Assembly (NCBI GenBank): GCA_029932675.1
Contig: JAOZPP010000004.1
Coordinates: forward strand, 12,157 to 76,156
Origin: a bacterium
Lineage (GTDB): Bacteria > SM23-81 > DAOVCL01
DNA length: 64,000 nt
Direction: 5' to 3'
This document shows positions 40,170 to 47,451 of the stretch, piece after piece (the stretch's first letter is position 1; the number at the start of each line of letters is the position of its first letter). Below the pieces are notes generated by a model. The model did not search any database. It worked only from the letters and a program-made list of their open reading frames with translations, and was not told the DNA's origin. Made by a program: the position numbers and the translations under genes.

Positions 40170-40355
40170 GGTGTAAAAGCAGTGGTAAAATTGAAGAAAT
40201 GGCGGGTTGAATGAAAGCGCTTGACCTACTTACGATGGGGGGTGGGAGGCTGATCCAAGATCCAGGTATGGGGCTGGGAAAGTCTGGGACGGAGGGTAGA
40301 GGACATCAAATCGAGAATAGTAGAGGGCTGAAAAATAGGCTAGTGAAAGCGAGAA

Positions 40356-40877
40356 GTGTGTGAGATGAAAGTAACCGCAGACGCATCTATTCTAATCCAC
40401 CTTGCAGCCATTGGAAGATTTTATCTATTGGAGGAGTTATTCGGTGAGGTAATGATCCCAGAAAGTGTCTATAAGGAGGTAGTTGTAGAAGGCTGGGGGC
40501 TTTCCGGTTCTTTAGAAACGGCGGAAGCCCTAAGAACGGGCCTTATAAAAGTAGGTGAAGTAATAGACAAGGAGAAAGTCAGAGAGTTCTCACAAAGATA
40601 TAGAGTCAGCGCAACCAATGCCGAGGTCATTCAATTATCAAAAGAGTTGAACTCTAAAATTGTTTTGGCCGATGAGGAAGAAGTTAGAGATGCTGCACAG
40701 GAAGCTGGCCTTCAAGTGAAAGGTTGTTTGGGCATACTTGTAGATTCAGTGAAAAATAAGATCATCTCTTCTCGACAGGCTGTCCAAGATATCGACAATT
40801 TAGTTGCATCAGGTTATCGCATTAGCAATGATATAATTGATGGATTGAAAAACACTTTAAGGAGATGGGACAGATGA
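40356..40877 (+). CDS. DUF3368-type PIN-like nuclease (toxin), copy 1
   Basis: DASILIHLAAIGRFYLLEELFGEVMIPESVYKEV.. and ..GCLGILVDSVKNKII match the DUF3368/COG2405 pattern. The likely start is ATG 40365. Confidence 0.75.
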   Translation: MCEMKVTADASILIHLAAIGRFYLLEELFGEVMIPESVYKEVVVEGWGLSGSLETAEALRTGLIKVGEVIDKEKVREFSQRYRVSATNAEVIQLSKELNSKIVLADEEEVRDAAQEAGLQVKGCLGILVDSVKNKIISSRQAVQDIDNLVASGYRISNDIIDGLKNTLRRWDR

Positions 40878-41092
40878 AAGCCTCCTTGATGATACCAGAA
40901 AGGATAAGGGAAAAGTTCCTGGGGGAGATACTGGATATGTATGCGCAAGGTGAGTTGGCTGCCAGCAAAGCTGCTCAGATGCTTGGCATACCGAGGGCTA
41001 CTTTCTATAGCCTATTGGCTGAAACAAACACCCCTCTCCCCAAAAAGCTTAATGATAGCATCAGAAAAGAGTTGGAAGAATTATTAAAGTGA
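40865..41092 (+). CDS. UPF0175-family antitoxin-like protein, copy 1
   Basis: 75 aa. ..ILDMYAQGELAASKAAQMLGIPRATFYSLLAE.. matches the UPF0175/COG2886 pattern. It overlaps the PIN ORF by 13 nt. Confidence 0.65.
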   Translation: MGQMKASLMIPERIREKFLGEILDMYAQGELAASKAAQMLGIPRATFYSLLAETNTPLPKKLNDSIRKELEELLK

Positions 41093-41223
41093 CACCTGAC
41101 CGCCGGGAAGTGGATAGAATCGTCTTTGAAGCCCTGAAATTAACTGAAAAGGAACAACTTGAAGTTCACCGGGCAGTGGGGGAGTTGGTGAAGAACAGGC
41201 TCGTTAAGGCAAGGAGTGTGTAG
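41089..41223 (+). pseudogene. orphan 3' tail of an Eco57I-family methyltransferase gene (relic 1)
   Basis: VTPDRREVDRIVFEALKLTEKEQLEVHRAVGELVKNRLVKARSV* parallels KPDRRELDKIVMGDILGLTEEEQLEVYRAVVDLVSSRIKKAKSV in the 1160-aa protein. It starts at a GTGA overlap with the antitoxin stop. Confidence 0.7.
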
Positions 41224-41241
41224 TACGGATACAGTGGATGG

Positions 41242-46200: not shown

Positions 46201-46473
46201 CTTAAGGCACCTCAAAACCAAATCGTAAACTGGTTACAAGGATTAGCTTCCAAAGCAACTGATCTTCTTGAATATTTTCGCGAACCTTTGCCAGAGTTAT
46301 ATCTGCGGGAGCTTCGTTCCTTATGGATTAACAGGGCCTCATCAGAGGAGGTACTCATCCTTAAGCTAAGGGAGTTCAAAGAGTCCCATCCAATTTCACC
46401 AGCAATGGAAAGAACTCCACCGCCTGAAGAGCCCAAGGTCAAAGTTGTTTGCTATCTTGCAGTTATGAGTTAG
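43279..46473 (+). CDS. fused PLD-family (HKD) nuclease domain and SNF2-family helicase
   Basis: 1064 aa. The HKD motif is [16 protein letters not shown]. Helicase motifs are GLGKT (I), [10 protein letters not shown] (II), ITATPVNNS (III) and [38 protein letters not shown] (V/VI). Confidence 0.85.
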   Translation: [1064 protein letters not shown]

Positions 46474-46583
46474 AAACTAAATGGGTAAACTTAGAAAGGT
46501 TATGAAAACCTGGGGATATCAGGGTAGAGGACATCAAATCGAGAATAGTAGAGGGCTGAAAAATAGGCTAGTGAAAGCGAGAA

Positions 46584-47105
46584 GTGTGTGAGATGAAAGT
46601 AACCGCAGACGCATCTATTCTAATCCACCTTGCAGCCATTGGAAGATTTTATCTATTGGAGGAGTTATTCGGTGAGGTAATGATCCCAGAAAGTGTCTAT
46701 AAGGAGGTAGTTGTAGAAGGCTGGGGGCTTTCCGGTTCTTTAGAAACGGCGGAAGCCCTAAGAACGGGCCTTATAAAAGTAGGTGAAGTAATAGACAAGG
46801 AGAAAGTCAGAGAGTTCTCACAAAGATATAGAGTCAGCGCAACCAATGCCGAGGTCATTCAATTATCAAAAGAGTTGAACTCTAAAATTGTTTTGGCCGA
46901 TGAGGAAGAAGTTAGAGATGCTGCACAGGAAGCTGGCCTTCAAGTGAAAGGTTGTTTGGGCATACTTGTAGATTCAGTGAAAAATAAGATCATCTCTTCT
47001 CGACAGGCTGTCCAAGATATCGACAATTTAGTTGCATCAGGTTATCGCATTAGCAATGATATAATTGATGGATTGAAAAACACTTTAAGGAGATGGGACA
47101 GATGA
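46584..47105 (+). CDS. DUF3368-type PIN-like nuclease (toxin), copy 2
   Basis: The protein is identical to that of 40356..40877. Confidence 0.75.
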   Translation: MCEMKVTADASILIHLAAIGRFYLLEELFGEVMIPESVYKEVVVEGWGLSGSLETAEALRTGLIKVGEVIDKEKVREFSQRYRVSATNAEVIQLSKELNSKIVLADEEEVRDAAQEAGLQVKGCLGILVDSVKNKIISSRQAVQDIDNLVASGYRISNDIIDGLKNTLRRWDR

Positions 47106-47320
47106 AAGCCTCCTTGATGATACCAGAAAGGATAAGGGAAAAGTTCCTGGGGGAGATACTGGATATGTATGCGCAAGGTGAGTTGGCTGCCAGCAAAGCT
47201 GCTCAGATGCTTGGCATACCGAGGGCTACTTTCTATAGCCTATTGGCTGAAACAAACACCCCTCTCCCCAAAAAGCTTAATGATAGCATCAGAAAAGAGT
47301 TGGAAGAATTATTAAAGTGA
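47093..47320 (+). CDS. UPF0175-family antitoxin-like protein, copy 2
   Basis: The protein is identical to that of 40865..41092. Confidence 0.65.
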   Translation: MGQMKASLMIPERIREKFLGEILDMYAQGELAASKAAQMLGIPRATFYSLLAETNTPLPKKLNDSIRKELEELLK

Positions 47321-47451
47321 CACCTGACCGCAGGGAACTGGATAGAATCATCTTCGAGGCTCTGGGCTTGACTGAGGGGAAGCAACTTGAGGTCTAGCGG
47401 GCGGTGGTGGAGTTGGTGAAGAACAGACTGGTTAAGGCAAGGAGTGTATAA
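47317..47451 (+). pseudogene. orphan methyltransferase 3' tail (relic 2) with an in-frame stop
   Basis: It reads VTPDRRELDRIIFEALGLTEGKQLEV*RAVVELVKNRLVKARSV*, with a TAG at 47395..47397. I count about 25 mismatches in about 120 nt against relic 1. Confidence 0.7.

What the first reader, a model, noticed from the sequence alone, without database searches (positions are those of the whole stretch)
40293..47331. Two base-identical 811-bp PIN-UPF0175 toxin-antitoxin cassettes bracket the helicase-nuclease module as direct repeats
40293..41103 and 46521..47331 are identical by eye at an offset of 6228 nt. Each copy carries the same 173-aa DUF3368/PIN-like ORF and the same 75-aa UPF0175-like ORF. 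Identity starts about 63 nt upstream of the toxin ORF and ends 11 nt past the antitoxin stop. Beyond that point the flanks continue as only roughly four-in-five identical (about 25 mismatches in about 120 nt). Head-to-tail repeats of this length allow RecA-mediated looping-out, or earlier looping-in, of a 6228-bp circle. That circle would carry TA, MTase tail, YhcG, the DUF2851-like gene and PLD-SNF2. The TA pair could therefore serve both as an addiction module and as the homology handle of an exchangeable defence cassette in an island that has no recombinase gene. The contrast between perfect identity and diverged neighbouring sequence implies a very recent duplication or gene conversion.
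Basis: seen in the sequence. Interest (0 to 1): 0.75.

Follow-up and report, generated by a model that had tools for sequence, protein, structure and literature searches.

The report
Duplicated toxin-antitoxin pair in defence island
Two letter-for-letter identical copies of a small toxin-antitoxin gene pair really do flank a nuclease-helicase defence module, but they look like a recently homogenised old duplicate inside a decaying stack of restriction-like systems, not the handles of a swappable cassette.

Summary
Window 40293-41103 and 46521-47331 are identical over 811 nt at an offset of 6228. Each copy carries a DUF3368/PIN toxin and a UPF0175 antitoxin. The right flanks are 79% identical over the next 120 nt.

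The context changes the interpretation.
- The "MTase tail" after each copy is the conserved 45-codon C-terminus of a roughly 1250-aa Eco57I-type methyltransferase.
- In other genomes this methyltransferase heads a three-gene system: MTase, a variable slot, a DUF2851-like gene, then PLD-SNF2.
- The toxin-antitoxin (TA) pair is ordinary slot cargo. It occurs once in that position in locus L030.
- The window holds six tail remnants and at least three decayed units of this system in tandem.
- Stacked orphan tails recur in about ten independent loci.

Both flanks of the exact repeat keep older, diverged homology. The left flank has about 24 nt that is also shared with two genus-level relatives lacking the TA. 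The right flank has 120-132 nt whose differences are mostly synonymous. The 811-nt identity is therefore best read as a recent gene-conversion or homologous-recombination tract between older copies.

RecA-mediated deletion of the 6.2-kb interval is possible. Nothing supports an exchangeable cassette, and two identical TA copies cancel each other's addiction effect. An assembly artefact cannot be excluded without reads.

The parts
36356..36745 (+). Truncated radC (UPF0758_N domain only) at the left edge of the island.
   Evidence: Pfam PF20582 matches, and there is no JAB domain (HNHP motif) anywhere in the window. The same truncated radC occurs in relatives L032 and L035.
36687..40169 (+). Resident 1160-aa Eco57I-type (type IIG-like) N6-adenine methyltransferase, 'MTase_N'. 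Its own tail motif lies at 39555-39692 and is followed by a 153-aa extension.
   Evidence: Pfam Eco57I and N6_Mtase match, as does PADLOC REase_MTase_IIG. The tail was placed by tblastn. The gene is conserved at this site in L032 and L035.
40218..40292 (+). 'b-left': a decayed non-coding remnant to the left of copy 1, shared with the relatives.
   Evidence: It is 76-80% identical to L032 16001-16056 and L035 8190-8243. The homology runs across the repeat boundary to about 40312.
40293..41103 (+). Exact repeat, copy 1.
   Evidence: 811/811 nt identical to 46521-47331.
40328..40363 (+). Methyltransferase tail-end remnant 'b' (LKNRLVKARSV*). Its stop codon lies 1 nt before the toxin ATG.
   Evidence: Found by tblastn. 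The same arrangement occurs upstream of the 77%-identical toxin in L001 and L002.
40365..40877 (+). Toxin, a COG2405/DUF3368 PIN-like protein of 170 aa (the GTG-start ORF begins at 40356).
   Evidence: Supported. dN/dS is about 0.1 against L030 and L001. The acidic residues D6, E38, E87 and E104/E106 are conserved.
40874..41092 (+). UPF0175 antitoxin of 72 aa, with an ATGA overlap onto the toxin stop.
   Evidence: Pfam PF03683 matches. It aligns with the L001 and L030 antitoxins, with the same stop position.
41086..41223 (+). Orphan methyltransferase tail 'c' (45 codons plus stop), immediately upstream of YhcG.
   Evidence: Found by tblastn and DNA alignment. It is 80-84% identical to the true methyltransferase C-termini in L011-L013.
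41242..42363 (+). YhcG/DUF1016 PD-(D/E)XK nuclease (PADLOC PDC-S02), embedded cargo.
   Evidence: Supported. The arrangement tail then YhcG is also seen in L023 and L024, and YhcG then DUF2851-like in L010.
42432..43292 (+). DUF2851-like gene (matches the C-terminal part of the Pfam model), a core gene of the system.
   Evidence: Pfam PF11013 matches. It is 49-60% identical to a gene in the same position in L010-L012, L015, L017, L020, L022, L026 and L030.
43279..46473 (+). PLD-SNF2 nuclease-helicase, a core gene of the system.
   Evidence: Pfam PLDc_2, SNF2-rel_dom and Helicase_C match. PADLOC C3a139 'HKD+Snf2' scores 1.5e-88. It is 67-73% identical to the homologues in L012, L015, L020 and L030.
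46497..46520 (+). 'b-left prime': a short diverged homologue of b-left, to the left of copy 2.
   Evidence: 15 of 18 nt match L032, in register with the boundary; 5 of 2000 shuffles reach this score. Confirmed in the four-way alignment.
46521..47331 (+). Exact repeat, copy 2: tail-end remnant 46556-46591, toxin 46593-47105, antitoxin 47102-47320.
   Evidence: Supported.
47314..47451 (+). Orphan methyltransferase tail 'e', with an in-frame TAG at 47395-47397, immediately upstream of the AlbA_2 gene.
   Evidence: Supported. The orthologue in L032 (15283-15432, 84.7% identical) is about 20 codons longer at its 5' end and has no TA pair.
47470..49158 (+). 562-aa AlbA_2 / HATPase_c_4 protein, embedded cargo.
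   Evidence: Pfam matches. The arrangement tail-end then AlbA_2 is also seen in L010.
49213..49351 (+). 5' fragment of a second DUF2851-like gene, 90% identical to 42418-42556.
   Evidence: Supported.
49349..49491 (+). C-terminal remnant of a DUF4258 toxin, fused to tail 'f'.
   Evidence: Seen in the translation. Pfam PF14076 scores 2.3e-5.
49492..49566 (+). Orphan methyltransferase tail 'f' (last 24 codons plus stop). The 87 nt from 49492 to 49578 are 90% identical to tail c.
   Evidence: Supported.
49594..49791 (+). Remnant of a winged-helix DNA-binding domain.
   Evidence: Supported.

Best explanation
The two cassettes are copies of one type II toxin-antitoxin pair, a COG2405/DUF3368 PIN-like toxin with a UPF0175 antitoxin. 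Pairs like this are embedded as accessory cargo in restriction-like defence systems.

Here the host system is an uncharacterised three-gene module: a roughly 1250-aa Eco57I-type methyltransferase ending in ...ELVKNRLVKARSV*, then a variable slot, then a DUF2851-like gene, then a PLD-SNF2 nuclease-helicase. The island between truncated radC and asnA is a tandem stack of at least three decayed units of this module, plus a resident type IIG-like methyltransferase.

What remains of the lost methyltransferases are 5'-truncated 3' tails. Each tail sits directly in front of the gene that used to follow it. The last codons of the tail (AAG GCA AGG AGT) contain the Shine-Dalgarno sequence of that downstream gene.

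Each TA copy lies between a tail-end remnant and a near-complete tail. The two copies belong to an older, diverged repeat of about 970 nt. Its central 811 nt were recently made identical by RecA-type gene conversion, or by a double crossover, with end points in the flanking methyltransferase-derived homology.

Shown: the identity, the flanking diverged homology, the system architecture in relatives, and the stacked tails. Inferred: the conversion mechanism, and the build-up of the stack by successive displacement as in Rhs/T6SS orphan arrays. A consequence, also inferred: the repeats can delete or amplify the 6.2-kb interval, but they are a by-product and not a dedicated exchange device.
For: 1. 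811/811 nt are identical, against 79% identity in the next 120 nt.
2. Differences between tails c and e are biased to synonymous sites: pS 0.48 against pN 0.10, 14 of 24 differences at third codon positions, Fisher p = 6e-5. The two tails therefore come from two once-functional methyltransferases, not from neutral decay after a local duplication.
3. The left flanks share about 24 nt of diverged homology, in register. This stretch is also present in genus-level relatives L032 and L035, which lack the TA pair.
4. The tail is the true C-terminus of long methyltransferase ORFs in L011, L012, L013, L015, L020, L021, L028 and L030.
5. The methyltransferase, the DUF2851-like gene and PLD-SNF2 are collinear in L012, L015, L020 and L030. 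L015 has an empty slot, and L030 has a 71%/78%-identical TA pair once in the slot.
6. Two or more tails per locus occur in the window, L007/L029, L009, L011, L014, L017, L018, L022, L025/L027 and L031, and many carry internal stops. L025 has another UPF0175-DUF3368 pair flanked by two tails.
7. The TA pair is under purifying selection, with dN/dS about 0.1, and its PIN acidic residues are conserved.
8. There are no inverted repeats, target-site duplication, recombinase, tRNA or REP hairpin.
9. Literature: embedding of accessory defence genes, bioRxiv 10.1101/2024.01.29.577857; the COG2405 toxin with UPF0175 as its exclusive partner, PMC5499597; orphan arrays built by displacement and homology-facilitated illegitimate recombination, PMC5361080.
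Against: The flanking homology is only 60-79% identical, and its longest perfect blocks near the right boundary are 11-18 nt. That is short for RecA-dependent exchange. Conversion therefore requires the TA coding parts to have been much more alike than the flanks, or the event to have used short homology.

The left-flank homology is only about 24 nt. No genome with a diverged second TA copy, or with a one-copy state, was found, so the 'older duplicate' is inferred from the flanks alone. Without reads, the identity could be partly made by the assembler.
Confidence: 0.5

Rival explanations
1. De novo recent copy. One cassette was copied once to the second site by short-homology or illegitimate recombination of the homology-facilitated type. 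The right junction formed in the first 18 nt of a resident methyltransferase tail, and the left junction formed at a chance microhomology. No older TA copy existed at the recipient site.
For: The e-like tail in L032 has about 20 extra 5' codons and no TA pair, so the TA2|e junction is derived. The perfect blocks across the right boundary are only 11-18 nt. The antitoxin stop overlaps the tail start at a microhomology, AAAGTGA. Tail-to-downstream-gene junctions elsewhere look illegitimate and sit at variable 5' truncation points.
Against: It does not explain the in-register, diverged roughly 24-nt homology to the left of copy 2.
Confidence: 0.2
2. Assembly effect. Either two near-identical but not identical copies were merged into one graph node that the contig traverses twice, or a loop in the assembly graph was resolved wrongly. 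In the second case the chromosome would read A-R-C and the B-R segment would lie elsewhere or be circular.
For: The sequence is probably from a metagenome contig of 81 kb, which is the contig length recorded for the window's own proteins. The exact protein is not on record elsewhere. The abrupt steps from 100% to about 75% identity on both sides are what bubble-merging would produce.
Against: The repeat has two different left flanks and two different right flanks that each continue into intact genes, so two junction contexts must exist in the sample. A 6.2-kb circle without replication genes is not a plausible replicon. Most short-read assemblers would break an 811-bp repeat rather than thread it.
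Confidence: 0.15
3. A 6228-bp circle carrying the TA pair, tail c, YhcG, the DUF2851-like gene and PLD-SNF2 looped into a resident TA copy by a single crossover, and it can loop out again. The TA pair would act as the homology handle and addiction module of an exchangeable defence cassette.
For: The topology fits: direct repeats at an offset of 6228 and no recombinase in the island. L025 shows a TA pair flanked by two tails that share the same 5' end, which is compatible with Campbell-type events at tails.
Against: The incoming and resident TA copies would have had to be identical over exactly 811 nt yet diverged on both sides, which only moves the problem back. The DUF2851-like gene and PLD-SNF2 are the conserved core of the system, not cargo. 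Relatives L032 and L035 show no resident TA pair between the resident methyltransferase and tail e. Loop-out leaves one TA copy in the chromosome, so there is no addiction effect.
Confidence: 0.1
4. The 811-bp unit is itself a mobile element, such as a transposon, MITE or integron-type cassette, that inserted twice.
For: The [tail-end + TA] unit occurs in unrelated contexts, after KAP-NTPase genes in L001 and L002.
Against: There are no terminal inverted repeats, target duplication, attC-like structure, transposase or integrase. There is no match in the plasmid or phage collections and no tail-motif match in viral contigs.
Confidence: 0.03

Closest known systems
COG2405 (DUF3368, PIN-like) / UPF0175 type II toxin-antitoxin pairs (Makarova 2009; Matelska 2017, PMC5499597)
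   Same: A PIN-like toxin with the DUF3368 C-terminal motif sits next to a UPF0175 helix-turn-helix partner. The two small genes are co-oriented and overlap. UPF0175 is reported to occur exclusively alongside COG2405.
   Different: The gene order here is toxin first, whereas the L025 pair is antitoxin first. The Pfam DUF3368 score is just under its cut-off. No activity has been tested.
Accessory defence genes embedded within multi-gene defence systems ('guilt by embedding'; Payne et al. 2024, bioRxiv 10.1101/2024.01.29.577857)
   Same: The toxin matches PADLOC PDC-S70 and YhcG matches PDC-S02. Both families were defined by their embedding in BREX, DISARM or type I RM systems. Here they lie between the methyltransferase and the nuclease-helicase genes.
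   Different: The host system (Eco57I-type methyltransferase, DUF2851-like gene, PLD-SNF2) is not one of the four host systems that paper examined. The embedded genes here come with 3' remnants of displaced methyltransferase genes.
Orphan arrays made by C-terminal displacement in Rhs, CDI and T6SS effector-immunity loci (Jackson 2009; Poole 2011; Kirchberger 2017, PMC5361080)
   Same: The island holds a string of 5'-truncated 3' gene fragments that share a conserved motif with a full-length upstream gene. Each fragment is still attached to its original downstream neighbour. The fragments were acquired from diverse sources. The proposed mechanism is one homologous end plus one illegitimate end.
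   Different: The displaced gene is a DNA methyltransferase, not a toxin. The retained neighbours are assorted defence or TA genes, not cognate immunity genes. No reactivation by recombination has been shown.
Concerted evolution of duplicated bacterial genes by RecA-dependent gene conversion (for example tufA/tufB and rRNA operons; from my own knowledge)
   Same: A perfectly identical core has sharp transitions to diverged flanks.
   Different: The copies here are direct repeats only 5.4 kb apart inside a decaying island, so deletion competes with conversion.
DISARM class 1 (DrmD SNF2 helicase, DrmC PLD nuclease, DrmMI adenine methylase)
   Same: An SNF2 helicase, a PLD nuclease and an N6-adenine methyltransferase occur together.
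   Different: The DrmD models score 94-141 bits against cut-offs of 610-950. No DrmA or DrmB is present. PLD and SNF2 are fused into one protein. A DUF2851-like gene is the third partner instead.

Membership tests
COG2405/DUF3368-UPF0175 type II toxin-antitoxin | Toxin carries the PIN-like/DUF3368 domain. | tested here: met
   Pfam PF11848 scores E = 1.9e-5 at 24.9 bits, just below the 27.3 cut-off. All 58 homologues carry a precomputed PF11848 hit. PADLOC PDC-S70 scores E = 4.7e-28 over residues 4-162.
COG2405/DUF3368-UPF0175 type II toxin-antitoxin | An adjacent, co-oriented UPF0175 partner gene. | tested here: met
   Pfam PF03683 scores 31.7 bits, above the 27.9 cut-off. The start and stop overlap as ATGA. 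The same pairing is seen in L001-L006 and L030.
COG2405/DUF3368-UPF0175 type II toxin-antitoxin | Conserved acidic PIN active-site residues. | tested here: met
   D6, E38 and E87 are invariant and E104/E106 nearly invariant across 14 homologues. Their assignment to the active site is by analogy and rests on no structure.
COG2405/DUF3368-UPF0175 type II toxin-antitoxin | The toxin arrests growth and the antitoxin neutralises it. | not testable with these tools
   This needs expression experiments.
Transposon / MITE / integron cassette | Terminal inverted repeats or an attC site, a target-site duplication, and an associated transposase or integrase. | tested here: not met
   No inverted repeats were found. 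There is no direct duplication at the unit's ends. No recombinase domain was found in the island ORFs scanned.
Embedded defence cargo (Payne et al. 2024) | The gene lies between the genes of a multi-gene defence system. | tested here: met
   L030 reads methyltransferase, DUF2283, TA pair, DUF2851-like gene, PLD-SNF2. L015 is the same system with an empty slot. The anti-phage function of the host system itself is untested.
C-terminal displacement / orphan array (Rhs, CDI, T6SS type) | Several 5'-truncated 3' fragments lie downstream of a full-length gene and share its conserved motif. | tested here: met
   The window has six tail remnants. The same pattern occurs in about ten other loci.
C-terminal displacement / orphan array (Rhs, CDI, T6SS type) | Each orphan stays attached to its original downstream partner gene. 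| tested here: inconclusive
   By my count, the next ORF starts within 30 nt of the tail stop in about 20 of 29 non-redundant tails. The pairs tail-YhcG, tail-AlbA_2 and tail-TA recur in other loci. No co-phylogeny analysis was done.
C-terminal displacement / orphan array (Rhs, CDI, T6SS type) | Orphans can recombine back onto the main gene. | not tested
   This would need population data or experiments.
DISARM | DrmA, DrmB and DrmC core genes, and a DrmD match at equivalog level. | tested here: not met
   NCBIfam DrmD scores 140.6 bits against a cut-off of 610. No DUF1998/DrmB or DrmA gene is in the island.

The most novel reading that the evidence does not exclude
The conserved roughly 140-nt 3' tail of this methyltransferase family may act as a portable adaptor. 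It would serve both as a homology arm and as a translational-coupling leader, because its last codons carry the Shine-Dalgarno sequence of the next gene. Defence and TA cassettes would be captured, stacked and reshuffled through it at the methyltransferase-to-DUF2851 slot without any dedicated recombinase. That would be a restriction-system counterpart of Rhs/CDI orphan arrays. The identical TA copies would be one snapshot of that ongoing recombination.
Probability: 0.2. Interest if true: 0.65.

Novelty: new variant of a known kind. Interest (0 to 1): 0.4.

Why it matters
The duplicated TA pair on its own is an ordinary product of recombination in a defence island. The follow-up uncovered three more useful things.

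1. A three-gene restriction-like system (Eco57I-type methyltransferase, DUF2851-like gene, PLD-SNF2) is spread across at least four named bacterial lineages. I found no curated family or paper that describes it.
2. That system has a defined slot where TA pairs and candidate defence genes are embedded.
3. Displaced methyltransferase 3' ends form stacks that record the history of cassette turnover.

If the tails do guide cassette capture, they would give a recombinase-free mechanism for the "embedding" of defence genes, which has so far been described only as a pattern. The case also shows that two identical TA copies undercut the addiction argument that is often invoked for such modules.

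Tried and rejected
- Exact-protein look-ups of the toxin, with GTG and with ATG starts, found nothing on record.
- A genome-contig scan with the toxin found no relative. 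The nearest toxin is 79% identical. A comparison of one-copy and two-copy strains was therefore impossible.
- A protein search with the 45-aa tail returned only three short orphan ORFs. This briefly suggested a stand-alone small protein. I rejected that after DNA pattern scans found long methyltransferase ORFs with the same ending, and because several orphans carry internal stops.
- The idea of old in-situ duplication of a dead [TA|tail] unit followed by neutral decay is rejected for the right flank. The differences between tails c and e are mostly synonymous.
- Overwriting of one tail by tail f is rejected. Tails c and f are 90% identical, not 100%, so any such event would be older than the TA identity.
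- REP/RAYT involvement is rejected for the window. A Y1-transposase remnant and hairpins are present in L032, and an intact gene in L021, but the window has no hairpin or gene of this kind.
- The tail shows no convincing dif-like palindrome by eye.
- The promoter and terminator scan was uninformative: 29 sites against 22 expected.
- There are no tRNA genes or Rfam families in the window.
- There is no plasmid or phage match to the cassette and no tail-motif match in viral contigs.
- The sequence downstream of PLD-SNF2 in L015 is unrelated to the left flank of copy 2.

Full report
**Observation**

Window 40293-41103 and 46521-47331 are identical at all 811 positions, at an offset of 6228. With no difference in 811 nt, the 95% upper bound on divergence is 0.37% per site. 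Identity begins 63 nt before the GTG-start toxin ORF and ends 11 nt after the antitoxin stop. The next 120 nt have 25 mismatches, or 79% identity, and similarity is gone by about 41250.

Each copy encodes a PIN-like toxin. Pfam DUF3368 scores 24.9 bits, just under its cut-off, and PADLOC PDC-S70 scores E = 4.7e-28. Each copy also encodes a UPF0175 protein at 31.7 bits, above its cut-off.

Homologues put the toxin start at ATG 40365 (170 aa) and the antitoxin start at ATG 40874 (72 aa). This gives an ATGA stop/start overlap. The toxin is under purifying selection, with dN/dS of about 0.1 against the 71-77% identical toxins of L030 and L001. It keeps the acidic residues D6, E38, E87 and E104/E106. 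UPF0175 is described as the exclusive partner of COG2405/DUF3368 toxins (PMC5499597).

**The island**

A low-GC stretch (0.37-0.46, against about 0.52 for the surroundings) runs from a truncated radC to asnA. The radC fragment at 36356-36745 has only the UPF0758_N domain, and no JAB domain exists anywhere in the window. asnA starts at 49956. The island contains, in order:
- a 1160-aa Eco57I-type, type IIG-like methyltransferase, called MTase_N here
- TA copy 1
- YhcG/DUF1016 (PDC-S02)
- a DUF2851-like gene
- a 1064-aa PLD-SNF2 protein (PADLOC 'HKD+Snf2' at 1.5e-88)
- TA copy 2
- an AlbA_2/HATPase_c_4 protein
- gene fragments

No recombinase, tRNA gene, Rfam family or inverted repeat is present.

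**The tails**

The key feature is the 'MTase tail', with the sequence KVTPDRRE..EQLEV.RAV.ELVKNRLVKARSV*. It occurs in frame inside MTase_N at 39555-39692. It occurs as an orphan after each TA copy: tail c at 41086-41223 and tail e at 47314-47451, the latter with an in-frame TAG. It occurs as a partial orphan, tail f, at 49492-49566. Its last 11 codons and stop also lie just upstream of each toxin, at 40328-40363 and 46556-46591, inside the exact repeat.

A pattern built from the last 11 codons carries about 51 bits of information, so fewer than 0.001 chance hits are expected. It found 5 loci in GTDB genomes: Stahlbacteria, Aerophobetes, Syntrophaceae, Anaerolineae and one unclassified bacterium. 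It found 17 metagenome contigs and none in viral contigs.

In L011, L012, L013, L015, L020, L021, L028 and L030 the motif closes long ORFs, up to 1256 codons, that match the methyltransferase. The tail is therefore the genuine C-terminus of a methyltransferase subfamily.

**The host system**

That methyltransferase heads a conserved module: methyltransferase, variable slot, DUF2851-like gene, PLD-SNF2.
- All three genes are collinear in L012, L015, L020 and L030.
- The PLD-SNF2 proteins there are 67-73% identical to the window's.
- L015 has an empty slot.
- L012 has a DUF4258 toxin in the slot.
- L030 has DUF2283 plus a TA pair that is 71% (toxin) and 78% (antitoxin) identical to ours.

The genes bracketed by the two TA copies are therefore the core of a system, and the TA pair and YhcG are the usual embedded cargo. 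This matches the embedding pattern that defined PDC-S70 and PDC-S02 (bioRxiv 10.1101/2024.01.29.577857).

The window's DUF2851-like gene and PLD-SNF2 have lost their cognate methyltransferase, of which only tail c remains. No curated family covers the module. The DrmD models score far below their cut-offs.

**Stacked remnants**

The window holds at least three decayed units.
- Unit A is tail c, YhcG, the DUF2851-like gene and PLD-SNF2.
- Unit B is tail e, AlbA_2 and a 5' fragment of a second DUF2851-like gene (49213-49351, 90% identical to unit A's).
- Unit C is tail f (90% identical to tail c) and a winged-helix remnant.

Two or more tails per locus also occur in L007/L029, L009, L011, L014, L017, L018, L022, L025/L027 and L031. 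Many of these tails carry internal stops, and their 5' truncation points vary.

In L025 another UPF0175-DUF3368 pair, this one antitoxin first, is flanked by two tails of about 100 nt.

Tail ends sit directly in front of the next gene. By my count, the next ORF starts within 30 nt of the tail stop in about 20 of 29 non-redundant tails. The KARSV codons AAG GCA AGG AGT contain AGGAG. This may explain why 3' ends survive deletions.

The pattern is closest to the orphan arrays of Rhs, CDI and T6SS loci. Those are attributed to successive displacement with one homologous and one illegitimate end (PMC5361080). Applying that mechanism here is inference.

**Relatives**

GlcD homologues that are 87-90% identical identify genus-level relatives.

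L032 and L035 share the upstream synteny, the truncated radC and MTase_N. L032 has an e-like orphan tail directly after MTase_N. That tail is 84.7% identical to tail e, is about 20 codons longer at its 5' end, and has no TA pair. L032 also has a Y1-transposase remnant with hairpins and a fragment of a DUF2851-like gene.

L034 has a different defence island at the same place, with HsdR, AlbA_2 and an OLD-family protein.

Both L032 and L035 carry a homologue of the sequence to the left of copy 1 ('b-left'). The homology runs across the repeat boundary to about 40312, after which the relatives continue without a TA pair.

The 24 nt to the left of copy 2 (46497-46520) are also homologous to this sequence, in register with the boundary. 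15 of 18 nt match L032, and 5 of 2000 shuffles reach that score.

**What made the identity**

Both sides of the identical tract grade into older, diverged homology. On the right, the differences between tails c and e are mostly synonymous: pS 0.48 against pN 0.10, Fisher p = 6e-5. The two tails therefore descend from two once-functional methyltransferases.

I conclude that a unit of about 970 nt (methyltransferase remnant, TA pair, tail) existed in two diverged copies. Its central 811 nt were then recently homogenised by gene conversion or by a double crossover. My confidence in this is about 0.5.

Weak points remain. The flanking homology is poor, with perfect blocks of only 11-18 nt near the right boundary. 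The left homology is short. No genome with a diverged second copy was found.

The rival explanations are:
- a de novo short-homology copy (0.2)
- an assembly effect (0.15)
- an autonomous mobile element (0.03). This one lacks inverted repeats, a target duplication and a transposase, plasmid and phage matches to the cassette, and any tail-motif match in viral contigs.

**Consequences**

The repeats can in principle delete or amplify the 6.2-kb interval by RecA-dependent recombination. Loop-out leaves one TA copy in the chromosome, and two identical copies back each other up. The pair therefore cannot enforce retention of the module. No evidence supports a dedicated exchange function.

**Verdict**

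The TA pair is a new member of a known family. The stacked methyltransferase tails in an undescribed three-gene system are a new variant of a known kind of locus architecture.

Noticed in passing
window 42432-46473; loci L012, L015, L020, L030: An Eco57I-type methyltransferase of about 1250 aa, a DUF2851-like gene and a PLD-SNF2 fusion form a conserved collinear module in several phyla. No NCBIfam or PADLOC system model covers it, and I found no paper describing it. In the window, its nuclease-helicase half is intact but the cognate methyltransferase is reduced to 45 codons.
   Followed up: partly
window 36356-36745; L032 11398-11748; L035 3330-3686: radC is cut after its N-terminal UPF0758_N domain at the island's left edge, and two genus-level relatives have the same truncation, so the insertion is old. 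In a third relative (L034) the glcD 3' flank carries a different defence island with HsdR, AlbA_2 and an OLD-family protein. The site appears to be a defence-island hotspot.
   Followed up: partly
window 39693-40169: The resident methyltransferase continues for 153 aa beyond the tail motif that ends its relatives. The extension is conserved in L032 and L035 at about 85% DNA identity. Its origin and function are unknown.
   Followed up: no
window 41205-41223 and all other tail ends; loci L001-L031: The last codons of the tail (AAG GCA AGG AGT GTN stop) contain an AGGAG Shine-Dalgarno sequence. In roughly two thirds of tails the next ORF starts within 30 nt of the stop, often overlapping it. This suggests translational coupling of slot genes to the methyltransferase.
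   Followed up: partly
L025 10554-11582 (same as L027): A UPF0175 (73 aa) plus DUF3368 (154 aa) pair in the usual antitoxin-first order is flanked by two tail remnants of about 100 nt. The two remnants are about 80% identical and begin at the same position, which resembles a long target duplication or a Campbell-type insertion at the tail.
   Followed up: partly
L032 15440-15870; L021 3941-4570: An IS200-like Y1 transposase (RAYT-like) follows the tail in L021, and its ORF itself ends in ...TRARSV*. L032 has a remnant flanked by two copies of the hairpin GGGGCGATTCATGAATCGCCCC. The window contains neither.
   Followed up: yes
window 42418-42556 and 49213-49351; 41149-41235 and 49492-49578: Two further direct-repeat pairs, each 90% identical, interleave with the TA repeat. 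One is the 5' end of the DUF2851-like gene and the other is tails c and f. They give additional substrates for deletion.
   Followed up: partly
window 14186-15808: Eight copies of a 63-nt coding repeat lie at multiples of 126 nt, with 60-75% identity. They probably encode a repeat protein of the beta-propeller type (motif ...DNKVYCAN). They are unrelated to the finding.
   Followed up: no
window 49349-49491 and 49594-49791: The right end of the island is a scrapyard. A DUF4258 toxin C-terminus is fused to tail f at a microhomology, and it is followed by a winged-helix remnant.
   Followed up: partly
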